IMG/VR virus record: IMGVR_UViG_2684623189_000005
Reading direction: 5' to 3' (one strand)
From: a virus
Taxonomy: Duplodnaviria > Heunggongvirae > Uroviricota > Caudoviricetes
Length of the DNA: 64,000 nt
Below the pieces are notes generated by a model. It saw only the letters and a program-made list of their open reading frames with translations, made no database searches and was not told the DNA's origin. The position numbers and the translations under genes are program-made. Shown here one piece after another: positions 2,740 to 43,491 of this stretch (its first letter is position 1; every line of letters starts with the position of its first letter).

Positions 2740-2791
2740 TCCACAAATAAAAAAGGCGCCATTTCTGGCGCCCGTATCTGGGTTATAAAAT

Positions 2792-3078
2792 TCAACTGAT
2801 ACTGATACCGGCTGTAGATTTCTTCATCACAACAACAAGAAGGTCGCTGATACTGGTCGTTGGCGTCCAGTTATTAGCACCATATGAAGAAACATTGAAA
2901 GTCAGGGTGACATGGCCGTGTCCGGCAGGCATATCAATGACTGATGAAAATACCCTGCTGACATCCGTCGCGGGTTGCTGAAAGATTTCCTGTCCGTTCT
3001 TCAGTACCTGCAGCTTACAGGTTGAATACCAGTATGACTGTTGGTTGTTGCTGTTGAAGTTTTCATGCTTACCCCCAC
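2792..3078 (-). pseudogene. J: 3' fragment of lambdoid host-specificity gene J (last ~95 codons), split from the 5' part by the Mu-like insertion
   Basis: Manual minus-strand translation gives ...[28 protein letters not shown]...[15 protein letters not shown]...[14 protein letters not shown], collinear with the lambda J C-terminus; in-frame with the J 5' part once the insertion is removed. Confidence 0.7.
3074..3078. repeat. target-site duplication, left copy (CCCAC; 5-6 bp, register ambiguous within a C-run)
   Basis: CCCCAC directly flanks TG at 3079 and is repeated directly after CA at 40289. Confidence 0.6.
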
Positions 3079-3125
3079 TGATGCGCCGCGCGATAAATGC
3101 ACTCTATCTTGTGCGATAAATGGCA
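3079..3125. repeat. left terminal region of Mu-like element with two direct GCGATAAATG repeats (putative transposase-binding sites)
   Basis: TGATGCGCCGCGCGATAAATGCACTCTATCTTGTGCGATAAATGG; resembles the CGATAAATGCG-type motif I recall at Mu ends. Confidence 0.5.
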
Positions 3126-3156
3126 TCCACGCGGCGTTTCATTATTTGAAAAAGAA

Positions 3157-3729
3157 TTACATTTCAGGTTGCGTTATGACAGTCCCAACAGGGTGGTAGC
3201 GGTAGATCGTTGACAGTCCAATATCATAGATAATTGCCAGCCGCTTTCTGTCATACCCTTTCTGGAGCAATCTTGCGATCTGCTCATGCTGCTCCTTCGT
3301 CAGTTTCGGGCGACGTCCTCCAACTCTTCCTTGTGCTCGCGCAGCAGCCAGTCCTGCCAGCGTGCGCTCAACTATCAGTTCACGCTCCATTTCTGCCAGT
3401 GCACCCATCATATGAAAAAAGAACCTTCCCATCGGAGTGCTGGTATCGATTGAATCCGTCAGACTGCGAAAATTGACACCTTTTGCGCGTAGCTCTTCTG
3501 TGAGAGCAATGAGGTGTTTCATTCTTCTACCCAACCGATCCAGCTTCCAGACCACCAATGTATCCCCTCTTTTAAGGCACTTTAAAGCGCGTTTCAGGCC
3601 TGGTCGTTCCGACTTGGTTCCGCTCATTTTGTCCTCAAAAATCTGTTCACATCCTGCGCACATTAATGCATTGCGTTGCAAATCTGTGTTTTGGTCATTT
3701 GTTGACACACGTATGTAGCCAATCAGCAT
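3157..3729 (-). CDS. gin: serine DNA invertase (Gin/Pin/Cin/Hin family)
   Basis: MLIGYIRVSTNDQNTDLQRNAL...GDTLVVWKLDRLGR...C-terminal HTH; start taken at internal Met 44 of the track ORF; adjacent to the invertible tail-fibre segment. Confidence 0.9.
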   Translation of the reverse strand: MLIGYIRVSTNDQNTDLQRNALMCAGCEQIFEDKMSGTKSERPGLKRALKCLKRGDTLVVWKLDRLGRRMKHLIALTEELRAKGVNFRSLTDSIDTSTPMGRFFFHMMGALAEMERELIVERTLAGLAAARAQGRVGGRRPKLTKEQHEQIARLLQKGYDRKRLAIIYDIGLSTIYRYHPVGTVITQPEM

Positions 3730-3784
3730 TAAAAATACTCCCTTTTGAGTGGTTAAAGTACTGAGATAATGTGGGGAGGATTTG

Positions 3785-3808
3785 AGAGATAAACGTTGGT
3801 TTGGGGGA
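3785..3808. other. gix/hix-like recombination crossover site 1 (AAACG-TT-GGTTT core)
   Basis: Partial palindrome at the 5' edge of a ~70-bp sequence repeated at 4299 and, inverted, at 5914. Confidence 0.5.
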
Positions 3809-4304
3809 AGGCTCTGCACTGCCTGTTGGTGTGCCTGTTCCATGGCCCACCGCCACACCGCCAGCAGGCTGGTTAAAGTGCGACGGGCGCGCCTTTACAA
3901 AAGAACAATATCCTGTTCTGGCCAGAGTCTACCCGACCCTCCGTCTTCCCGATTTGCGCGGTGAGTTTATCCGTGGATGGGACGACGGGCGCAAAGTTGA
4001 TACGGGGCGTTCATTGCTAAGTGGTCAGGCTGCAACATTTATTCGTACAGCTTTGCAGGATTATTACGGTTACGATCTGAATACTAATGTCAAAGTAGGT
4101 ATCGCTTTTGCTACTGCTGATTCTGTTATAACCGTTGGAAACCCAGCTAATCCTAAAGCAGGAAATAATAGCGATTATGTTCCTGCATCAGCAGATAACT
4201 CTATAACGGGTATTCAAAGGACAGCGGAGGATAATTTTACCGGGGCATGGATATCAATGCGCCCCCGCAATGTTGCGTTTAATTACATCGTAAGGGCCGC
4301 ATAA
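3801..4304 (+). CDS. promoterless alternative tail-fibre C-terminal cassette (Sv-type, distal copy)
   Basis: No ATG (TTG only); begins GEGSALPVGVPVPWPTATPPAGWL, identical to the crossover region inside the active fibre gene; ends NVAFNYIVRAA like other fibre tips. Confidence 0.7.
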   Translation: MGEGSALPVGVPVPWPTATPPAGWLKCDGRAFTKEQYPVLARVYPTLRLPDLRGEFIRGWDDGRKVDTGRSLLSGQAATFIRTALQDYYGYDLNTNVKVGIAFATADSVITVGNPANPKAGNNSDYVPASADNSITGIQRTAEDNFTGAWISMRPRNVAFNYIVRAA

Positions 4305-4322
4305 AAACGTTGGTTTGGGGGA
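4299..4322. other. gix/hix-like recombination crossover site 2
   Basis: ATAAAAACG-TT-GGTTTGGGGG; direct repeat of site 1. Confidence 0.5.
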
Positions 4323-4788
4323 AGGCTCTGCATTGCCTGTTGGTGTGCCTGTTCCGTGGCCCACCGCCACACCGCCAGCAGGCTGGTTACAGTGCAACGG
4401 AGCTACGTTCACCAAAGAACAATATCCTGTTCTGGCCAGAGTCTACCCGACCCTCCGTCTTCCCGATTTACGCGGTGAGTTTATCCGTGGATGGGACGAC
4501 GGGCGCAAGATTGACGAGGGGCGTAAGTTGCTTTCATGGCAGAAAGGTACACTGGTCGGCGGTCATGACGATAACGATTCTTCGCTGGATATCTCGTACA
4601 TGAGTAACGGAAATAATATTGACTATGGCGGCGATAAGGTGTTTGCGGGGAATTACCGTAGCGATTATTTGTGGTACGCAATTCTGGGTGGAACAAACAG
4701 TCGCGCAAAAGCCGAATTAAACGGAGCATTCTTTAACATAACCCGCCCCCGCAATATCGCGTTTAACTATATCGTGAGGGCGGCGTGA
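4315..4788 (+). CDS. promoterless alternative tail-fibre C-terminal cassette (Sv-type, proximal copy)
   Basis: Same conserved N-terminal crossover segment, divergent middle, conserved NIAFNYIVRAA end; converges on the Tfa gene. Confidence 0.7.
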   Translation: MGEGSALPVGVPVPWPTATPPAGWLQCNGATFTKEQYPVLARVYPTLRLPDLRGEFIRGWDDGRKIDEGRKLLSWQKGTLVGGHDDNDSSLDISYMSNGNNIDYGGDKVFAGNYRSDYLWYAILGGTNSRAKAELNGAFFNITRPRNIAFNYIVRAA

Positions 4789-4794
4789 TACCGT

Positions 4795-5409
4795 TCAGCT
4801 GGCAAGTGCCAGTGGCGCTTCCGGCCAGCTGATTTCAGGTGCCGTGCTGATATCCAGTGCGTTCAGCTCGTCGATATAATCCAGCACGGCGTTCAGTTTT
4901 GCCGTTTCTTCTGGTGTCAGACTGCGACCAGCACGCAGTTTGAGGTTGATAAGATCGACGGACGCCATCGCCTGTTTCACCCGTTGCTGGCGTTGCTGTC
5001 TGGCAACCTCCAGTTCTGCGGCTCGCTGCCGTTCAGTATCGGTTACCCACGCCTCACCGTTCCAGGTATCCCATGGCGTGGCCGGCTGTTTTGTGGTGGT
5101 GTCCGCCGGGTAATCACCCGGTTGGGTAATCAGAACGGGGTTACCGTTCTCCGTGCTGTATACCGTCTCGCCGCGGTGATCAGGCACATGCTCCCACCCG
5201 TTCAGCGTGGCAGTCCGGCAAACCACGTAACCCGAAATTGCCTCCGGCGGTGCATCGGCGCACGAATGTGCCGGAGTACCCACCCCAAGGGCGAGATACT
5301 CCACAGAGGATGAGGTGTATTCCCGGGTTTCCTCGTCATAGTGATATACAGTGATCTCGCCCGCTACAGTGGCGATACCGTTTTCATCCAGAACTGCAGT
5401 GTTACTCAT
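4795..5409 (-). CDS. U: tail fibre assembly protein (Tfa/U-like)
   Basis: 204 aa directly downstream of the fibre gene; C-terminal ...YIDELNALDISTAPEISWPEAP typical of Tfa chaperones. Confidence 0.8.
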   Translation of the reverse strand: MSNTAVLDENGIATVAGEITVYHYDEETREYTSSSVEYLALGVGTPAHSCADAPPEAISGYVVCRTATLNGWEHVPDHRGETVYSTENGNPVLITQPGDYPADTTTKQPATPWDTWNGEAWVTDTERQRAAELEVARQQRQQRVKQAMASVDLINLKLRAGRSLTPEETAKLNAVLDYIDELNALDISTAPEISWPEAPLALAS

Positions 5410-7046
5410 TAAACTGCCCTCACAATGTAATTAAGTGCAATGCTACGGGGTCTGACAGTGATACCCTTCGCATACCCGCTTCTGATAGAGGTCAGAATAG
5501 TAGCCTGCATACCATTGTCTGACATTGCCACGACAGGATCGCTGAATGTTGTCCCGTCCGGCATTTTAAAGCTGCCCTCACGAAGGTCTGTAATGGAATC
5601 TTCATTGTTGAATCCCATGCCGACTATCCCCGAGGTTCCCGTAGTGTCCTGGTTATAATAATCCAGCATTGCTGTTCTTAACAGCGTTGCCCCTTGTGCG
5701 GACAGCAACTTACGTCCTGTATCAACTTTGCGCCCGTCGTCCCATCCACGGATAAACTCACCGCGTAAATCGGGAAGACGGAGGGTCGGGTAGACTCTGG
5801 CCAGAACAGGATATTGTTCTTTAGTGAACGTAGCTCCGTTGCACTGTAACCAGCCTGCTGGCGGTGTGGCGGTGGGCCACGGAACAGGCACACCAACGGG
5901 TAGCGCCGAGCCTTCTCCTAAACCAAGGTAATTGAGGACATCTTTTATACTGCCCTTAGCGATAATAGCGCGACCAATAGCTGTAAGGGTTGCCAGCGCT
6001 GCGCGGTCTGCTCCGGTAAAATAAGGCAACCGATCTGCTGCAGTGGCAAGTCCTGCCAGAGCAGTGAGCGTGGCATCTGCCGGTTGTTTTCCGTTTGCCA
6101 GATCGTATGCAGCCTTGACCGCTTTCGGTGTGGCGGCCAGTATTTCAGACGTGCTGTTGATGGCACTGCTCAATTGTATGGTGCCTTTTGCCGTCAGCGA
6201 GGCAGCAGGCACTCCCGTTATCTGACTCCACGGGTGAGTGTGGCTGACGGGCGCCTTGCCGGCTGCAAGGTCGTATGCAGCCTTGACCGCCTTCGGCGTG
6301 GCAGCCTCAGTTTCTGATTGACTGTCCGTGGCGCTGCTCAGTTGTACGGTGCCTTTTGCCGTCAGCGAGGCAGCAGGCACTCCCGTTATCTGACTCCACG
6401 GGTGAGTGTGGCTGACGGGGGCCTTGCCGGCAGCCAGGTCATATGCAGCCTTGACGGCCTTTGGTGTGGCGGCCAGCGTTTCAGAGGTGCTGTTGGTGGC
6501 ACTGCTCAGTTGTACGATCCCTTTACGGGTCGTTGTTGCATCCTGGGCTGTGTATTTTCCCCGGGCCAGATCATACGCGATTTTCACAGCCTTCGGCGTG
6601 GCAGCCTCAGTTTCTGATTGACTGTCCGTGGCACTGCTCAGCTGTACGGTGCCTTTTGCCGTCAGCGAGGCAGCAGGCACTCCCGTTATCTGACTCCACG
6701 GGTGAGTGTGACTGACGGGTGCCTTGCCGGCTGCAAGGTCGTATGCAGCCTTGACGGCTTTTGGTGTGGCGGCCAGCGTTTCAGAGGTGCTGTTGGTGGC
6801 ACTGCTCAGTTGGGTGAACCCCTTAGCTGTCAGTGTCGCGTCCGGGTGGTTACGGGAACGTACGTGTTCAGCCAGTGACTGTGCGGCTTCCTCCGTTTTT
6901 TTCTTCAGCCATTTCGTCCTGTTTGCCAGTTGCCGGGGGGCTCGATTTGATATCCCGTCAGCACCACCCAGAACCGGATCTGATGTCTCCAGTTGATAGA
7001 TTTTTTCTTCCCACTTTTCTGTTTCATTCAGGTTTCCCATAATCAA
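5409..7046 (-). CDS. S: tail fibre protein (Mu S / P2 H-like) with internal repeats; currently expressed constant plus variable part
   Basis: 545 aa; N-terminus ...LETSDPVLGGADGISNRAPRQLANRT...; repeated KGxVQLSSATxSxSETxAATPKAVK units; C-terminus ends SIALNYIVRAV. Confidence 0.85.
   Translation of the reverse strand: MIMGNLNETEKWEEKIYQLETSDPVLGGADGISNRAPRQLANRTKWLKKKTEEAAQSLAEHVRSRNHPDATLTAKGFTQLSSATNSTSETLAATPKAVKAAYDLAAGKAPVSHTHPWSQITGVPAASLTAKGTVQLSSATDSQSETEAATPKAVKIAYDLARGKYTAQDATTTRKGIVQLSSATNSTSETLAATPKAVKAAYDLAAGKAPVSHTHPWSQITGVPAASLTAKGTVQLSSATDSQSETEAATPKAVKAAYDLAAGKAPVSHTHPWSQITGVPAASLTAKGTIQLSSAINSTSEILAATPKAVKAAYDLANGKQPADATLTALAGLATAADRLPYFTGADRAALATLTAIGRAIIAKGSIKDVLNYLGLGEGSALPVGVPVPWPTATPPAGWLQCNGATFTKEQYPVLARVYPTLRLPDLRGEFIRGWDDGRKVDTGRKLLSAQGATLLRTAMLDYYNQDTTGTSGIVGMGFNNEDSITDLREGSFKMPDGTTFSDPVVAMSDNGMQATILTSIRSGYAKGITVRPRSIALNYIVRAV
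5914..5937. other. gix/hix-like recombination crossover site 3 (inverted relative to sites 1 and 2)
   Basis: CTCCTAAACC-AA-GGTAATTGAG; reverse complement of the site 1/2 motif, followed by an inverted copy of the shared coding segment. Confidence 0.5.
6040..6880. repeat. ~300-bp tandem repeats inside the tail fibre gene (about 3 copies)
   Basis: Near-identical DNA blocks produce repeated antisense ORFs starting at 6318 and 6618 and repeated peptide units in S. Confidence 0.7.
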
Positions 7047-7633
7047 CTGCTCCCGTGGTTATAACTGCCATCATGGATGGCGGTATTGTTATAGCGAATG
7101 GCCACAGACTGATACTCCAGGCTGGCCAGATGGCAGCGGGCCGGTGCAAATGCAGCGAGCGTCTGACGCAGCATCGCGGCCTGATCGTTAGTAATGGGCT
7201 GTTTCAGAATAACGCGATAAACCGCCCAGGCGGCTGCATCTCCATGAACAAACAGTCCGTTATAGCTGCGATTGCCGTCGTAACTGAGACGACCTGTGCC
7301 TTCAATCAGATCCACTTCACCAAAGCCAAAACGGCGGATAACTTCCCGGATTGACCACGGCGTCCCTTTATACCGGTGTAGTTCGATGGCTGCTTTTATA
7401 AGCATGCGGCGAACATCGTCCGATTCCGCCAGCTCCCAGCCATCGCCAGACAGTGAGAACTGCTCGCCCAGCCATGGCAGCGCAGAACTGTCGACGATAT
7501 CGACGAGAAAGACCATCAGTACGCTCAGGTCGATGTTATCCAGCCGCCCTGCCAGTCTTCCCAGCGTCCTGAGACTGATATCACCCTCAAGCGGTGGCGG
7601 GAGTTGTAATGGCTCAGTCATCAGACACTCCAC
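7043..7633 (-). CDS. baseplate protein (P2 gpI / Mu gp48-like)
   Basis: 196 aa; position between the baseplate J-like gene and the tail fibre; family signature. Confidence 0.7.
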   Translation of the reverse strand: MECLMTEPLQLPPPLEGDISLRTLGRLAGRLDNIDLSVLMVFLVDIVDSSALPWLGEQFSLSGDGWELAESDDVRRMLIKAAIELHRYKGTPWSIREVIRRFGFGEVDLIEGTGRLSYDGNRSYNGLFVHGDAAAWAVYRVILKQPITNDQAAMLRQTLAAFAPARCHLASLEYQSVAIRYNNTAIHDGSYNHGSS

Positions 7634-8717
7634 TCATGTTAAGTGTGATCGCCGTACAGTTTGCCCATTCGTTTTCTGCCACCACCCTCAGTGCCGGTGT
7701 CACCAGTTCAACCTGGTACACCCCGGAAACGGACAATGCACTGATAATCTGGCTGGGGACAATATCACGCCCCAGCGTGGCGGCACGTGATGCCACCCAG
7801 TTCTGTATGGCGCTGTTAGCGGCATCTTTTACAGACCTGGCATCCTGATCACGATAGATCGTAATCCTGGCTTCAATGGTGTAATCCACCTTCACTGGTG
7901 TTTTAGCCCGCACTGTATCAGTGAGTGGCCTGACTTTCTCATCAGAGCAGAAACTCTCTACCAGCGTGAGAACACCGCCGTCCGGCAGACCGGTACTGAG
8001 CAGCGGATACAGATCTACGGTCCCGGGAACCGGGGAAAGCACAGCAACATCGACAATGTTGGGATGGGCCTGCATGGCATGAAAGCGGTATGCGCCACGG
8101 CTTCCGGCATTGGTGAATGACTCCGGGGCCAGCCTGATACGCTCCCGGAGCCTGTCATCGTCTTCCTGTTCTGAACCGCCGGAACTGGCCGTCAGATTGC
8201 TCACCAGCAGGTCGACGTTATCAATCTCATCGAGTAACTGACTGACCTGCGCAGGTTGCCAGCCGTTACCAGCGGTACCGGGTTCGGTACAGGTGGACGT
8301 GACATTGACCAGCAGCAATCCGGCCTTCAGTACCACATCTGTATCGGTGGCAAAAATAACGCTGTCGGAAGCGCTGACGCGGGTGCCTGCCGGGATCAGC
8401 ACATCAATGGTCAGTGCCTCATCCACAGAGAACTGAAGTGTGGTGGTGGCAGGCTGCGCGGCAAGGCGGTATACACCAACCAGTTCTCCGAGGTAATCAA
8501 TCATCGGCTCTCGTGAAAAGGCGACCAGATTCTGCTTTGCTGCCTCCTGTACCGCAACCCTGACCAGCATTTCGCGATAGGCCCACAGATCAATCAGCAG
8601 ACGTTCTGCCTGTGCCGGGTACAGCGTTTTGCCGGTATCCGCTTCATACTTCGCAATCATTTCTGCCGTGATTTTGTCGGCATCGCGTTCAATAAAATCG
8701 GGTTCTGTCAGCGCCAT
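7614..8717 (-). CDS. baseplate J-like protein (P2 gpJ / Mu gp47 family)
   Basis: 367 aa; conserved order W-J-I-fibre. Confidence 0.75.
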   Translation of the reverse strand: MALTEPDFIERDADKITAEMIAKYEADTGKTLYPAQAERLLIDLWAYREMLVRVAVQEAAKQNLVAFSREPMIDYLGELVGVYRLAAQPATTTLQFSVDEALTIDVLIPAGTRVSASDSVIFATDTDVVLKAGLLLVNVTSTCTEPGTAGNGWQPAQVSQLLDEIDNVDLLVSNLTASSGGSEQEDDDRLRERIRLAPESFTNAGSRGAYRFHAMQAHPNIVDVAVLSPVPGTVDLYPLLSTGLPDGGVLTLVESFCSDEKVRPLTDTVRAKTPVKVDYTIEARITIYRDQDARSVKDAANSAIQNWVASRAATLGRDIVPSQIISALSVSGVYQVELVTPALRVVAENEWANCTAITLNMSGVSDD

Positions 8718-11078: not shown

Positions 11079-11959
11079 ACACTCCTCGTCAGTATTCTGG
11101 CGGCCATTGCACTTAATCCCGGAGACATGCGGTTGAATGCTGTTCCGACGGCGTTAAGCTGCCCGGAAACGGTATCCAGAGCACCTGCAATATTTCTTTT
11201 GTCCACACCACTCAGCACAGACTGTGCCTGCTGTACATACGTGGCTGCTTCGCTGGCTGTTCTGGCCAGACTGATGGCATCGGGCATGGATTCAGAGAGT
11301 GCGTTAAACGCCGGAACACTTTTCCCCAGAGCCCCGGAGATATTACCCAGTCCGCTCATCAGCCCCGGCACACGGGTCAGTGCGACAACGGGGTTATCCT
11401 TCATTTTCTGTGTCACTCGAACGGCGCTGATAGTGGTCTGGAGTACAGACTGCGCCTGTTTCGCATAGTTGACGCCGTTGCGGATGAACTGCGCCACCCC
11501 GGAAGGTGAAGGAATGGCACCGGAGACCGCCCCGACACCCGGGAGCTTCGTGCGTATTGCCGGTGGTTGCAGAGGATTTTTCGGGTCACCGGTGTATTCC
11601 CGGAGAGACACGGTGGCACTGACAGCCAGCACGTTGCCGGTACTGTCAGTCTGCTCGCTGGTTGCAGTCACATCGGTAATCACGAACCAGCCGCGATAGT
11701 CACCGTTGCCGAAGACCAGCGCCAGTGCCTGATGGGCTTTCATGGCTGTTCGCAGTCTCGCCAGCTCCACATCGGGTACACAATAATGCTGATGGAAAAC
11801 CAGAGTTATCTGGATTTCGTCCAGCCTGTCGCCGACGAACTGCAGGCCAGGCTTACCCCCGATGCGGGCATGCTCCGCATAATCGACGCCGAACGTGGCC
11901 TCGAAGCCGTCCCAGTAGGTAATCAGCTCAAACTCAATATCACCCAGTACGGCAAACAT
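11075..11959 (-). CDS. tail protein (P2 gpU / Mu gp43-like)
   Basis: 294 aa immediately downstream of the tape measure gene. Confidence 0.6.
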   Translation of the reverse strand: MFAVLGDIEFELITYWDGFEATFGVDYAEHARIGGKPGLQFVGDRLDEIQITLVFHQHYCVPDVELARLRTAMKAHQALALVFGNGDYRGWFVITDVTATSEQTDSTGNVLAVSATVSLREYTGDPKNPLQPPAIRTKLPGVGAVSGAIPSPSGVAQFIRNGVNYAKQAQSVLQTTISAVRVTQKMKDNPVVALTRVPGLMSGLGNISGALGKSVPAFNALSESMPDAISLARTASEAATYVQQAQSVLSGVDKRNIAGALDTVSGQLNAVGTAFNRMSPGLSAMAARILTRSV

Positions 11960-14900
11960 CAGCGGTACTCCTTACGTTGTTTCTGAGCCAGCAGACGCTC
12001 CAGCATTTTTTCCAGCTCATGCAGACTCATATTCAGGGCACCAGTCAGTCCTGCAGGCGCTGTGGTTTCCCTGCCATTGAGGAAAAACTGAGGATTAAAG
12101 CTGACCTGGATACCACCAGACGTTCCACCGCCGGTTGCAGCTGCACCACGGCCTGAATATCCGGCAGCCAGGATTTCAGGCGAGGGGATACGGGGAACAT
12201 CCGGTGTCATCTCATTTGCCAGACGTTGCCCTGGTAAAATCGATGCCCGGGTGGAGAGCGGAATAACGGGCATGGAAGACAAACTATTGATTACGGCTCC
12301 GATCGCATTTTTAGCAGACGACATAAACCCATTGATATCGGGCAACGGCATACTGAAGCGAACACCTGAAGTGTTATCCCGTATTTCTGGCCCCTGAATG
12401 CTCACGGGCATTCTGGGGAGCAGTTCACTGGCCATTCGCTGCCCGGCCAGAGCTGCAAGCGGAGTGGTCCGCTGCAGGCCAATGGCGGCCCCCTGCGCGA
12501 TATTGTCACCAAAGCCCATAAACACGCGGCTCGGCGAATGAATGCCCAGCTTTTCGCTGAACCAGCCACTGATGCTGTCACCCATTCCGGTTACACTGGA
12601 TTTGAGCGACTCCCATTTGTTTTTGATACCGTTAATCAGACCGTCGACAAGATGGCCACCGAAGTCGGTGAACTTTGCCGGCAGATCAACACCAAGATAT
12701 TTCAGCGCAGCTGCAAAGGCTTTATAGAGCAGACCTGCCGGCGACCAGTTAATCAGCAGCTTACCAGTTCCCGCGATACCGCCGTTAAAGGCTTCCTGAA
12801 TGTCAGCCCAGCACTGTTTAAACCAGCTACTGATGCTGTCACCCATTCCGGTTACACTGGATTTGAGCGACCCCCATTTGTTTTTGATACCGTTAATCAG
12901 ACCGTCGATAAGATGGCCACCGAAGTCGGTGAACTTTGCCGGCAGAGCAACGCCGAAATATTTCAGCGCAGCCGCAAAGGCTTTATAGAGCAGGCCTGCC
13001 GGCGACCAGTTAATCAGCAACTTACCAATTCCCACAATGCCGCCGTTAAAGGCTTCCTGAATGTCAGCCCAGCGCTGTTTAAACCAGCTACTGATGCTGT
13101 CACCCATTCCGGTTACACTGGATTTGAGCGACCCCCATTTGCTTTTGATACCGTTAATCAGACCGTCGATAAGATGGCCACCGAAGTCGGTGAACTTTGC
13201 CGGCAGAGCAACGCCGAAATATTTCAGCGCAGCCGCAAAGGCTTTATAGAGCAGGCCTGCCGGCGACCAGTTAATCAGCAACTTACCAATTCCCACAATG
13301 CCGCCGTTAAAGGCTTCCTGAATGTCAGCCCAGCGCTGTTTAAACCAACCACTGACAGCCCCCCAGTTGCGGTAGATAAGGTAAGCTGCTGTCGCGACAG
13401 CGGTGATAACGAGACCGATGGGATTCATCATCAGCGCTCGCCCAATCCAGAGAACGGCACGTGCAGCGCTCATAAAACCGCGAACGAGGCTGCCCGCCAG
13501 AACTTTGCTGAGTTTCAGTCCTCCGCTGGTCAGTCGGCTGAATCCAGTGACAAGCCAGCGTAATTTGCCACCTTCTCCGAGTGCGGTAGTCAGTCGATGC
13601 CAGTTGGTCCGGAGTAAAACAGTAGTTTTCCAGACGTTCACAAAGGGGGAAATAAGGAGATTCAGCCCCAGTTTGAGACCAATAGTCGCTATCTTAATCG
13701 CAAGGAGCGCACTGATGAGCTTAAAAGCCCCACTGACAAATTGCGGGTGAGTCGCTACCCAGTGTTTTGTCCCCTGAATGAGTGGGAGCAGTTCCTGAGT
13801 CAGAGAAATAAAAGATGGAGCTAATTGATCGCCCAGCGTAATTGCCAGATCGCGACTGCTGACCATAAGTGTTTTAGTGGCTTCAAGGGGAGATTTCAGC
13901 CGCTGATCATAAGCACTGGCAAGCAAATCGTTATCCGCAGCCCTGAGAGCACCGGCACGGATCTCTCGATATCTGTCCATGTTGGCCAGCATCGGGCGGA
14001 TAAATGCCATGACCTGCATATCCGCGAACATATCGCCCAGACCAAAGTTTTTCGCCAGAGCCTGAAGTGCCTCATCTCTTGCCGTATCATTCTTTATTTT
14101 CATGGCTGATTTGAAGCCGGCCAGCGCTTCGGGGCTTTTGGCATTGAGGTAACGTTCTATAACACTCAACATCCCTTCAATCGGAGAGATCCCCGCAGCT
14201 TTATAACTCGCAATAGATCCCTGCAAATCAATACCCAGATCAGCAAACTGTTTCTGAGTATCGCGGGCAAAAATTTTGGTAAGAAAGTTTTTAAAATTAT
14301 TGGCTGCTTCGTCGGTGGAACCTGCACCGATTTTTGCTATCTGGAGACTGGCCCCGATTTCAGCAACAGCCTCTTTTCCACTGGCAAGACCCGCCATCAT
14401 TGGGGCCAGGGACTGCATCCACTTGACCTGATCCGGGATTTCAAATGACCCCTGGTCACCGGCATAAGCCATAATATTCTGAACGGCACCAAAATCTCTG
14501 GCCGCACCTTTCAGGGAGTTTTGCCAGACTGCGGCCACTTTTGCCCAGTCCTGAGCAGACGTGCGTGTTGCCGTTGCCGCGCGGGCAATATCCGGCATCA
14601 GAAAACCGATATCTGACACATTATCAATATTGTCGCTGATGAGTGAACCCACCGCCTCCTGCAGCTCATCCTGATACTGATTGTATTTAAGCGCCCAGCC
14701 TTTTATCTGTCCGGCAAGTGCATCCCGCGTTTTATTGTCATATTTTGCGGTGATCGACATATCAATCATTTTGTCCTGAAAAGACATGGACTGCTGAACG
14801 GCAGGGGAAACCGTATGATAAACAGTCTGTGCCATGCCATACGCTTCAATCCCCTGACCATACAGCGCCATGCGGTTAGCTTTCAGCGCATCACTGGTAG

Positions 14901-15171
14901 CGGATGCCGCTGACAGACGGCGCTGCTGGCGCTCAATTTGCTCCATGGTGCGGCTTACCCGCAGCAGCTCGCTGTTGAGATGCTGCATCCGGGAAGAACC
15001 CAGTTGACCATAACGTTCTGTTGCACGGGTTAAAGCGTTCTGACGTTCCTGCAGGCGGCGTGAGGTATCGCTCAGGGAATCAAGCGCACGGCGGGTACCG
15101 CTCATTGCAGAACGGAATGTGCTGCCAATCATCCCGCCGATAACAACGCCGACTGAAAACTGTCCCGACAT
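11959..15171 (-). CDS. tail tape measure protein with internal 3 x 87-aa repeat
   Basis: 1070 aa, coiled-coil-rich N-terminus, hydrophobic segments; position after the chaperone pair. Confidence 0.85.
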   Translation of the reverse strand: MSGQFSVGVVIGGMIGSTFRSAMSGTRRALDSLSDTSRRLQERQNALTRATERYGQLGSSRMQHLNSELLRVSRTMEQIERQQRRLSAASATSDALKANRMALYGQGIEAYGMAQTVYHTVSPAVQQSMSFQDKMIDMSITAKYDNKTRDALAGQIKGWALKYNQYQDELQEAVGSLISDNIDNVSDIGFLMPDIARAATATRTSAQDWAKVAAVWQNSLKGAARDFGAVQNIMAYAGDQGSFEIPDQVKWMQSLAPMMAGLASGKEAVAEIGASLQIAKIGAGSTDEAANNFKNFLTKIFARDTQKQFADLGIDLQGSIASYKAAGISPIEGMLSVIERYLNAKSPEALAGFKSAMKIKNDTARDEALQALAKNFGLGDMFADMQVMAFIRPMLANMDRYREIRAGALRAADNDLLASAYDQRLKSPLEATKTLMVSSRDLAITLGDQLAPSFISLTQELLPLIQGTKHWVATHPQFVSGAFKLISALLAIKIATIGLKLGLNLLISPFVNVWKTTVLLRTNWHRLTTALGEGGKLRWLVTGFSRLTSGGLKLSKVLAGSLVRGFMSAARAVLWIGRALMMNPIGLVITAVATAAYLIYRNWGAVSGWFKQRWADIQEAFNGGIVGIGKLLINWSPAGLLYKAFAAALKYFGVALPAKFTDFGGHLIDGLINGIKSKWGSLKSSVTGMGDSISSWFKQRWADIQEAFNGGIVGIGKLLINWSPAGLLYKAFAAALKYFGVALPAKFTDFGGHLIDGLINGIKNKWGSLKSSVTGMGDSISSWFKQCWADIQEAFNGGIAGTGKLLINWSPAGLLYKAFAAALKYLGVDLPAKFTDFGGHLVDGLINGIKNKWESLKSSVTGMGDSISGWFSEKLGIHSPSRVFMGFGDNIAQGAAIGLQRTTPLAALAGQRMASELLPRMPVSIQGPEIRDNTSGVRFSMPLPDINGFMSSAKNAIGAVINSLSSMPVIPLSTRASILPGQRLANEMTPDVPRIPSPEILAAGYSGRGAAATGGGTSGGIQVSFNPQFFLNGRETTAPAGLTGALNMSLHELEKMLERLLAQKQRKEYR
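12540..13325. repeat. three tandem 261-bp repeats inside the tape measure gene
   Basis: Near-identical units beginning near 12542, 12800 and 13061 encode WFKQRWADIQEAFNGG...SSVTGMGDSISS three times and produce three repeated antisense ORFs. Confidence 0.85.

Positions 15172-40157: not shown

Positions 40158-43491
<3,334 letters not shown>

What the first reader, a model, noticed from the sequence alone, without database searches (positions are those of the whole stretch)
3157..5943. Three-site Gin inversion switch for tail-fibre tips
A ~70-bp segment encoding LGEGSALPVGVPVPWPTATPPAGWL with an AAACG-TT-GGTTT-like core occurs three times: twice directly (near 3790 and 4305) and once inverted inside the active fibre gene (near 5925). 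A Gin/Pin-family invertase gene lies adjacent. Inversion between the inverted site and either direct site would fuse the constant fibre part to one of two alternative tips, giving three host-range variants rather than the two of the Mu G segment.
Basis: partly seen in the sequence, partly recalled or inferred. Interest (0 to 1): 0.65.

Follow-up and report, generated by a model that had tools for sequence, protein, structure and literature searches.

The report
Three-site tail-fibre inversion switch, already known
A prophage in this E. coli window carries a working DNA-flipping switch that joins one tail-fibre gene to any of three alternative tips, but the same design has already been described in other E. 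coli phages and plasmids, so it is a well-supported but ordinary finding.

Summary
A 17-base recombination-site motif occurs exactly three times in the 64 kb window (cores at 3796-3797, 4310-4311 and 5925-5926; 0.22 hits expected by chance). Each site heads a 229-274 nt repeat. A Gin/Pin/Cin-family serine invertase gene (3157-3729, minus strand) lies next to them.

All three tips join the constant fibre part in frame. I built the four possible DNA arrangements in silico, and each one occurs full-length at 99.7-100% identity in complete E. coli genomes. The three predicted fusion proteins exist letter for letter in public data, on 51, 143 and 115 contigs.

Two near-identical isolates, Esc30 and Esc31, carry the same prophage insertion in malE. 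They differ only by an exact 1617-bp inversion, and the exchange point falls within 7 nt that include the predicted core.

It is not new. The sites nearly match the mix sites of plasmid p15B (Min system). A homologous three-site cassette with the same gene order and an 86% identical invertase was PCR-validated in EPEC E2348/69 in 2014. Inversions in what is probably this cassette family have also been reported in ST131 isolates.

One point remains unexplained. The single tail-fibre assembly gene lies antisense to the fibre operon in two of the four isomers.

The parts
3157..3729 (-). Din-family (Gin/Pin/Cin/Min-type) serine DNA invertase gene, 190 aa
   Evidence: Pfam Resolvase + HTH_7. 77% identical to Mu Gin, 76% to e14 Pin, 73% to P1 Cin, 86% to the E2348/69 P2-like prophage invertase. 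The Fis/enhancer contact residues (Hin K47, R48, K51, Q151, R154, L155) are conserved (PMC3798978). The 100%-identical DNA in NZ_CP069459.1 is annotated WP_000904922.1.
3640..3711 (-). Predicted recombinational (Fis) enhancer, nt 19-90 of the invertase gene
   Evidence: Aligns without gaps to the enhancer annotated in P1 cin (nt 19-90 of cin). The blocks GTGTCAACAAATGAC and GCGCAGGATGTGAAC are conserved in P1, Mu, e14, E2348/69 and the window, including synonymous positions. Function is inferred from homology only.
3784..3809 (+). Recombination site A (26 bp; core TT at 3796-3797): GAGAGATAAACG TT GGTTTGGGGGAA
   Evidence: Its reverse complement, TTCCCCCAAACC AA CGTTTATCTCTC, fits the dix consensus and resembles pixR and the mix sites (Table 3 of PMC3241671).
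3798..4304 (+). Promoterless alternative tip A (collar domain, variable region, C-terminal RPRNVAFNYIVRAA)
   Evidence: Pfam Collar. The in-frame fusion gives a 540-aa fibre. That exact protein is on 115 public contigs.
4298..4323 (+). Recombination site B (core TT at 4310-4311): CGCATAAAAACG TT GGTTTGGGGGAA
   Evidence: Its reverse complement, TTCCCCCAAACC AA CGTTTTTATGCG, differs at 1 of 26 positions from p15B mixN''O'. The left half-site overlaps the stop codon of tip A.
4312..4788 (+). Promoterless alternative tip B
   Evidence: Pfam Collar. The in-frame fusion gives a 530-aa fibre. That exact protein is on 143 public contigs. It is the expressed tip in Esc30.
4795..5409 (-). Single tail-fibre assembly (chaperone) gene inside the invertible segment
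   Evidence: Pfam Caudo_TAP, E=3.5e-28. 59% identical to the tfa of the E2348/69 cassette. No significant similarity to Mu U.
5409..5924 (-). Tip C, the tip currently fused to the fibre gene
   Evidence: The 543-aa fibre, as encoded in the window, is on 51 public contigs.
5913..5938 (-). Recombination site C (core AA at 5925-5926 on the + strand): TTCTCCTAAACC AA GGTAATTGAGGA, inverted relative to A and B
   Evidence: It resembles p15B mixQ''R' TTCCCCCAAACC AA GGTAATCAAGAA.
5927..7040 (-). Constant N-terminal part of the tail-fibre gene (five 'phage tail fibre repeat' units)
   Evidence: Pfam Phage_fiber_2, E=1.2e-93. Annotated CDS in the 100% identical record.

Best explanation
This is a functional three-site DNA inversion switch of the Din family (Hin/Gin/Cin/Pin/Min). 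It sits at the right end of a transposable, BcepMu/phiE255-like prophage with P2-type tail genes.

Proposed mechanism. The invertase binds three 26-bp sites that share a TT/AA core. Site C lies inside the tail-fibre gene. Sites A and B each head a promoterless alternative 3' gene segment on the opposite strand. A Fis-bound enhancer in the first 90 nt of the invertase gene helps assemble the synaptic complex. Strand exchange at the core inverts either the 1617-bp B-C segment or the 2131-bp A-C segment, and in the inverted states the corresponding sub-segments.

Outcome. Four DNA isomers are possible. State 0 expresses fibre-tip C followed by tfa. State 1 expresses fibre-tip B. State 2 expresses fibre-tip A. 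State 3 expresses fibre-tip A followed by the tip C fragment and tfa in sense. These give three fibres of 543, 530 and 540 aa that share the collar domain and a C-terminal RPRN(I/V)A(F/L)NYIVRA motif but differ in the central, presumably receptor-binding, part.

Status of each step. Shown here: the sites, the reading frames, the natural existence of all isomers, and core-precise exchange. Inferred: catalysis by this particular invertase, dependence on Fis and the enhancer, and a change of host range.
For: Sites and chance.

Invertase family and Fis-contact residues: with PMC3798978.

Enhancer homologue.

Sites fit the published Din site table. Site B is 25/26 identical to a p15B mix site.

All fusions are in frame.

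Synthetic isomers built by exchanging exactly at the cores match complete genomes over 3201/3201 nt. State 1 matches at 99.7% (H58-H61). State 2 matches at 99.7% (H83-H88). State 3 matches at 100.0% in strain M-17 (H98). State 0 matches at 100% in FDAARGOS_1249 (H1).

Exact look-up finds all three predicted fibres verbatim, on 51, 143 and 115 contigs.

Esc30 and Esc31 have genomes of 5,230,305 and 5,230,280 bp. Both carry the prophage at the same place in malE, and the flanking protein accessions are identical. They differ by an exact reverse-complemented 1617-bp segment. The first repeat polymorphism, 6 nt from the core, is swapped while the left flank is not.

The homologous E2348/69 cassette has the same gene order and site design. 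Its four variants were shown by PCR to coexist (PMC4272514).
Against: No read-level data are available for the source strain, so ongoing switching in this particular lysogen is not shown.

The enhancer lies in sequence that encodes the most conserved part of the enzyme. Its conservation is therefore only weak independent evidence.

No promoter for the invertase was detected by the simple scan.

Only one tfa gene serves three tips, and it is antisense to the fibre operon in states 1 and 2. Whether fibres with tip B, or with tip A in state 2, assemble is unknown. A distant tip-A-like fibre in Burkholderia phage Mica does have its own tfa.

No host-range data exist.
Confidence: 0.9

Rival explanations
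1. The arrangements arise by general (RecA-type) homologous recombination between the 229-274-nt inverted repeats, not by the invertase.
For: The repeats are long and 84-93% identical. A tip-A-type patch inside the tip C repeat of Esc30/Esc31 shows that homologous exchange or gene conversion does occur among them (one search compared).
Against: In Esc30 vs Esc31 the exchange maps to the 7 nt TTGGTTT at the very edge of the homology. Synthetic isomers made by exact core exchange match natural genomes at 100.0% although the repeats differ at 7-16% of positions. Random crossovers within the repeats would leave chimeric repeats.
Confidence: 0.04
2. The switch is a fossil. The isomers record past events in the phage lineage, and this copy no longer flips or only uses one of the two alternative sites.
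For: No population data exist for the source strain. The prophage sits in a host chromosome where fibre function is not selected.
Against: The invertase ORF is intact, and the annotated product of the 100%-identical DNA is the same protein accession (WP_000904922.1) as in the Esc30/Esc31 pair, which differ by a recent inversion. All three cores are identical. Sequences 100% identical to the window occur in state 0 and state 3. All three fibres are common.
Confidence: 0.05
3. The alternative arrangements are assembly artefacts caused by the repeats.
For: Inverted repeats can mislead short-read assemblers.
Against: The matches are in complete, closed genomes. Hundreds of records are involved: 207-227 records with at least 80% coverage per state query, although those counts mix the state pairs 0/3 and 1/2. 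The homologous locus was PCR-validated (PMC4272514). Inversions in what are probably the same prophages were PCR-confirmed in ST131 isolates (10.1101/2022.05.07.487787).
Confidence: 0.01

Closest known systems
Three-inverted-repeat fibre switch in a P2-like prophage of EPEC E2348/69 (NC_011601.1 1891695-1893703; Goldberg et al. 2014, PMC4272514)
   Same: The gene order is identical once the inversion state is allowed for: constant fibre part, site, tip, site, tip, tfa and tip on the other strand, site, invertase. The site design is the same: TTACC-TT-GGTTT on the constant side and AAACG-TT-GGTTT at the other two sites. The invertase is 86% identical and the tfa 59% identical. The tips share the collar and C-terminal motifs. 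There are two nested inversions, about 2.0 and 1.6 kb there against 2.1 and 1.6 kb here. The paper reports four variants and three C-termini, shown by PCR.
   Different: The host phage is P2-like there and a transposable BcepMu/phiE255-like phage here. The variable parts of the tips are different sequences. The constant fibre part also differs.
Min multiple-inversion system of plasmid p15B (six mix sites; Iida/Sandmeier/Arber 1990-92, sites listed in PMC3241671 Table 3)
   Same: It is a Din-family invertase acting on more than two sites. The variable 3' fibre segments lie in tandem, each starting at a site that overlaps the stop codon of the previous one. Site B here is 25/26 identical to mixN''O', and site C resembles mixQ''R'. 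The same cassette, with an identical invertase protein, occurs at about 97% identity in roughly 92-kb non-mobilizable plasmids carrying phage genes (head protein, holin, tail fibre), probably phage-plasmids.
   Different: There are three sites rather than six, so four isomers instead of the hundreds possible for Min (that figure is from my own recollection of the original papers, which could not be read). The element is chromosomal and transposable, not a P1-type plasmid.
Mu G segment / P1 C segment / e14 P segment (two-site Gin, Cin, Pin systems)
   Same: The invertase is 73-77% identical. All use 26-bp sites with a 2-bp core and have an enhancer at the 5' end of the invertase gene. The logic is the same: one constant fibre part fused to alternative tips. 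The switch sits at the right end of a transposable phage, as in Mu.
   Different: Those systems have two sites, two tips, and a dedicated assembly gene for each tip (U and U'). Here there are three sites, three tips and one tfa. The tips and tfa show no significant similarity to Mu S/U beyond the shaft repeat. There is no mom/com downstream.
R64-type shufflons
   Same: They are also multiple-inversion systems that select one of several C-termini for a surface adhesin.
   Different: Shufflons use a tyrosine recombinase (Rci) and different sites (established knowledge). Here the enzyme is a serine invertase, so this is not a member.

Membership tests
Din-family (Hin/Gin/Cin/Pin/Min) Fis-dependent DNA inversion system | Small serine recombinase (about 190 aa) with an N-terminal resolvase catalytic domain and a C-terminal HTH, closely related to Gin/Pin/Cin | tested here: met
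   Pfam Resolvase + HTH_7. 77% identical to Mu Gin, 76% to e14 Pin, 73% to P1 Cin.
Din-family (Hin/Gin/Cin/Pin/Min) Fis-dependent DNA inversion system | 26-bp imperfectly palindromic sites matching TTC---AAAC- -A -GTTT---GAA, with identical 2-bp cores in the partner sites | tested here: met
   All three sites have an AA/TT core and a good conserved half-site (TTC[C/T]CC[C/T]AAACC). The other half-site is weaker, as in pixR and the mix sites.
Din-family (Hin/Gin/Cin/Pin/Min) Fis-dependent DNA inversion system | Partner sites in inverted orientation on the same molecule | tested here: met
   Site C is inverted relative to A and B.
Din-family (Hin/Gin/Cin/Pin/Min) Fis-dependent DNA inversion system | Recombinational enhancer with two Fis sites in cis, within the 5' end of the invertase gene | tested here: inconclusive
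   Gin nt 19-90 aligns without gaps to the annotated P1 cin enhancer. Both candidate Fis blocks are conserved, including synonymous positions. The placement of the Fis sites is from my own knowledge. Binding and function are not testable here.
Din-family (Hin/Gin/Cin/Pin/Min) Fis-dependent DNA inversion system | Invertase residues that contact Fis and the enhancer (Hin K47, K/R48, K/R51, Q151, R154, L155) | tested here: met
   The window Gin has K46, R47, K50, Q150, R153 and L154 at the aligned positions (residues taken from PMC3798978).
Din-family (Hin/Gin/Cin/Pin/Min) Fis-dependent DNA inversion system | Inversion actually occurs, with exchange at the core dinucleotide | tested here: met
   This is comparative evidence, not biochemical. 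All isomers occur at 99.7-100% identity. The Esc30/Esc31 pair places the exchange within 7 nt that include the core.
Multiple-inversion fibre systems (p15B Min; E2348/69 three-IR locus) | More than two sites serving one constant gene part and several promoterless, in-frame 3' segments | tested here: met
   There are three sites and three in-frame tips. All three fusions exist verbatim in public data.
Multiple-inversion fibre systems (p15B Min; E2348/69 three-IR locus) | Coexistence of the isomers within one clonal population | not testable with these tools
   Only assemblies are available. The nearest proxy is the Esc30/Esc31 near-isogenic pair. Coexistence was shown by PCR for the E2348/69 homologue (PMC4272514).
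Mu G segment proper | Two gix sites flanking S/U and S'/U' gene pairs homologous to Mu | tested here: not met
   There are three sites and one tfa. The tips and tfa have no significant similarity to Mu S/U.
Shufflon (Rci type) | Tyrosine recombinase Rci acting on sfx repeats | tested here: not met
   The recombinase is a serine resolvase/invertase.

The most novel reading that the evidence does not exclude
The switch may control more than tip identity. The only tail-fibre assembly gene lies inside the invertible DNA, so it is co-oriented with the fibre operon in states 0 and 3 and antisense in states 1 and 2. States 2 and 3 encode the same tip A fibre with and without the chaperone gene downstream. 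Tip B never has it in cis. If this matters, the four isomers are four phenotypes. Either tips A and B fold without a chaperone, which would be unusual for this fibre class, or they depend on a Tfa supplied in trans by other prophages. That second option would couple the infectivity of the progeny to the prophage content of the host.
Probability: 0.2. Interest if true: 0.45.

Novelty: already known. Interest (0 to 1): 0.15.

Why it matters
It shows that this widespread E. coli prophage module can present three receptor-binding tips from one fibre gene. The module is found in Mu-like and P2-like prophages and in roughly 92-kb plasmids that carry phage genes. That is relevant to prophage host range, to annotation (the alternative tips are routinely labelled as partial or pseudo 'phage tail protein' genes), and to comparing assemblies, because inversion states differ between near-identical isolates. 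It does not open a new question, because the design and its behaviour were already described for p15B Min and for EPEC E2348/69.

Tried and rejected
- I searched papers for the Hin enhancer sequence, to anchor the Fis sites. Only unrelated hits came back. I used the enhancer annotated in the P1 record instead.
- The original p15B Min paper (PMC53420) and the Shigella pinB paper (PMC208056) are not held. I had recalled a three-site pinB B segment. The published Din site table lists only bixL and bixR, so I dropped that claim.
- The simple promoter/terminator scan of 3000-7200 found fewer promoter-like sites than the shuffles and nothing near gin. It was uninformative.
- tblastn of the unique parts of tip B and tip A against sequenced phages gave only the same cassette for tip B, and a few 37-45% relatives for tip A. 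That is not enough to settle whether these tips need a chaperone. The one relative I inspected, Burkholderia phage Mica, has a tfa downstream.
- A search for the source genome using the prophage/host junction found no complete genome with this insertion.
- The counts of records with at least 80% coverage per state query cannot serve as state frequencies. States 0/3 and 1/2 differ only in the position of the 514-bp tip A unit. I used exact-protein contig counts instead.
- Several loci fetched in parallel or by accession were not exported to the Python sandbox. Those comparisons were done with the alignment tools instead.


Full report
**What is in the sequence**

The region 3157-7046 holds the following features.
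- An ORF at 3157-3729(-) with the Resolvase and HTH_7 domains.
- Two promoterless ORF fragments on the plus strand, tip A (3798-4304) and tip B (4312-4788). Each starts with a 'phage tail collar' domain.
- A tail-fibre assembly gene (tfa) at 4795-5409(-).
- A 543-aa tail-fibre gene at 5409-7040(-). Its last 172 codons (tip C) start with the same collar domain.

The repeats are real and long. The direct pair 3791-4018 / 4305-4532 is 91% identical. The inverted pairs are 3793-4066 / 5656-5929 (84%) and 4307-4535 / 5701-5929 (93%).

Each repeat begins with a 26-bp site.
- Site A: GAGAGATAAACG TT GGTTTGGGGGAA, core at 3796-3797.
- Site B: CGCATAAAAACG TT GGTTTGGGGGAA, core at 4310-4311.
- Site C, on the other strand: TCCTCAATTACC TT GGTTTAGGAGAA, core at 5925-5926.

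A 17-nt motif built from these sites, searched with two mismatches allowed, hits only these three places in 64 kb. Chance expectation is 0.22, and none of 100 shuffles reached 3 hits. The one correction is that the repeat is 229-274 nt rather than about 70 bp.

**Context**

The switch lies at the right end of a transposable prophage.
- The tail genes upstream are P2-like (baseplate I, J, W, V, D, X, tape measure).
- Further along are an rve-type transposase and an AAA ATPase.
- The phage end TGATGCGCC... starts at 3079.
- The sequence to its left is 100% identical to the uninterrupted J-stf junction of a lambdoid prophage in many strains, and that match stops exactly at 3078.

The same prophage, 100% identical over 3100-7100, sits in a different chromosomal site in strain FDAARGOS_1249. 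That is expected for a transposable phage.

**The enzyme and its sites**

The invertase is 77% identical to Mu Gin, 76% to e14 Pin and 73% to P1 Cin. It keeps the residues that McLean et al. (PMC3798978) found to be uniquely conserved in Fis/enhancer-dependent invertases. Hin K47, R48, K51, Q151, R154 and L155 correspond to K46, R47, K50, Q150, R153 and L154 here.

The P1 record annotates the Cin enhancer at nt 19-90 of cin. The same interval of the window gene (3640-3711, minus strand) aligns without gaps. Two blocks, GTGTCAACAAATGAC and GCGCAGGATGTGAAC, are conserved in P1, Mu, e14, E2348/69 and the window, even at synonymous positions. From my own knowledge these blocks correspond to the two Fis sites. 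The test is weak, because the interval also encodes the catalytic N-terminus.

Written in the orientation of the published Din site table (PMC3241671, Table 3), the sites read as follows.
- A: TTCCCCCAAACC AA CGTTTATCTCTC
- B: TTCCCCCAAACC AA CGTTTTTATGCG
- C: TTCTCCTAAACC AA GGTAATTGAGGA

[quoted passage not shown] Site B differs from p15B mixN''O' at one position of 26. Site C resembles mixQ''R'.

**Do the predicted rearrangements exist?**

Exchange at the cores keeps the reading frame. It gives fibres of 543 aa (tip C), 530 aa (tip B) and 540 aa (tip A).

Three sites allow four DNA isomers.
- State 0, as in the window: constant part-tip C-tfa.
- State 1: constant part-tip B, with tfa antisense.
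- State 2: constant part-tip A-tip B, with tfa antisense.
- State 3: constant part-tip A, then the tip C fragment and tfa in sense.

I built 3201-nt versions of states 1-3 from the window sequence and searched the complete E. coli genomes. Each was found over its full length.
- State 1 at 99.7% (H58-H61 and others).
- State 2 at 99.7% (H83-H88).
- State 3 at 100.0% in strain M-17 (H98).
- State 0 at 100% (H1).

An exact-sequence look-up found all three predicted fibres verbatim in public data: tip C on 51 contigs, tip B on 143 and tip A on 115.

The cleanest case is a pair of near-identical genomes, Esc30 and Esc31 (5,230,305 and 5,230,280 bp).
- Both carry the prophage at the same position in malE, and the flanking protein accessions are identical.
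- The 1617-bp segment between cores B and C in one is the exact reverse complement of the other.
- At both junctions the non-homologous flank is unchanged, while the first repeat polymorphism, 6 nt beyond the core, has moved with the segment.
- The exchange therefore lies within TTGGTTT at the very edge of a 229-nt homology.

This is the signature of site-specific exchange, not general recombination.

**Comparison with what is known**

Goldberg et al. 2014 (PMC4272514) described a locus in a P2-like prophage of EPEC E2348/69. It has three partially homologous inverted repeats, two nested inversions, four variants and three alternative C-termini, and the variants were shown to coexist by PCR.

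I fetched that locus.
- It has the same gene order as the window's state 2.
- It has the same site design: TTACC-TT-GGTTT on the constant side and AAACG-TT-GGTTT at the other two sites.
- Its invertase is 86% identical and its tfa 59% identical.
- Its tips share the collar region and the C-terminal RPRNIAFNYIVRAA motif.

The p15B Min system is the classical multi-site precedent, and its site sequences nearly coincide with those here. The same cassette, with an identical invertase protein (WP_000904922.1), also occurs at about 97% identity in roughly 92-kb non-mobilizable plasmids that carry phage head, holin and tail-fibre genes.

A preprint on ST131 wound isolates reports PCR-confirmed inversions and a 'translocation' of fibre gene parts. 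These occur in prophages labelled Entero_P88 and Burkho_phiE255, and the authors mention '70 bp repeats' (10.1101/2022.05.07.487787). This is probably the same cassette family. A state 0 to state 3 change would look like a translocation of the 514-bp tip A unit, but that reading is my inference.

It is not the Mu G segment itself. The tips and the tfa have no significant similarity to Mu S and U beyond the shaft repeat motif. There are also three sites and one tfa, instead of two sites and two S/U pairs.

**What remains unexplained**

Only one tfa gene serves three tips, and it is antisense to the fibre operon in states 1 and 2. The E2348/69 cassette has the same feature, so it belongs to the module and is not a defect of this copy. 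Whether tips A and B need a chaperone could not be settled.

Two-tip versions lacking tip A also exist. In them, the left half-site of A is joined at the core to tip B. This fits either a rare deletion between the directly repeated sites A and B or an ancestral two-site form.

**Verdict**

The system is an instance of an already described design, so interest is low.

Noticed in passing
window 2786-3078 and 40292-43491 (prophage 3079-40291): The roughly 37-kb transposable prophage is inserted inside gene J (tail-tip host-specificity protein) of a resident lambdoid prophage, within the C-terminal receptor-binding domain. It is flanked by a 5-bp duplication, CCCAC. Joining the two halves restores an in-frame 1160-aa J. 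The intact J-stf junction is 100% identical in Nissle 1917, ATCC 11775, NU14 and other strains, and the match stops exactly at window 3078. No complete genome in the collection has this insertion.
   Followed up: partly
window 4795-5409 relative to 3798-4788: There is a single tail-fibre assembly gene for three tips. It is antisense to the fibre operon in two of the four isomers. States 2 and 3 encode the same tip A fibre with and without tfa downstream. The E2348/69 cassette is arranged the same way.
   Followed up: partly
window 6097-6846: The constant fibre part contains three copies of a 282-nt repeat, 81-89% identical. Related genomes differ by one 168-bp unit, giving spans of 3369 vs 3201 nt. 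The shaft length is therefore polymorphic.
   Followed up: no
window 11959-15171 (-): The tape-measure protein contains three near-identical tandem repeats of about 85 aa (SWFKQRWADIQEAFNGG...GMGDSIS), visible in the translation.
   Followed up: no
L004/L005 7285-7320 compared with window 5810-5850 and 3870-3910: In Esc30/Esc31 the collar repeat of tip C carries a patch identical to the window's tip A (GGTTAAAGTGCGACGGGCGCGCCTTTACAAAAG). This indicates gene conversion among the three repeats, in addition to site-specific inversion (one search compared).
   Followed up: no
L011 (Escherichia phage 503046, CP025887.1) 890-1160; also hits H23-H32: Two-tip versions of the cassette are 514 bp shorter. 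The left half-site of A is joined at the core directly to tip B, and tip A is absent. This is either a deletion between the direct sites or the ancestral form.
   Followed up: partly
L007 (NZ_CP022228.3, 92.5-kb plasmid) 4058-8121: The same three-site cassette, with an identical invertase protein (WP_000904922.1), sits in a roughly 92-kb non-mobilizable plasmid that carries phage head, holin and tail-fibre genes. The module therefore moves between Mu-like prophages, P2-like prophages and such plasmids.
   Followed up: partly
window 4744-4800: The 3' end of tip B and the bases after its stop codon (GCGGCGTGATACCGTT) resemble the end of tip A plus the left half of site B (GCCGCATAAAAACGTT): 81% identity over 52 nt (family D3). 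The right half-site is missing. This may be a relic of a fourth site.
   Followed up: no
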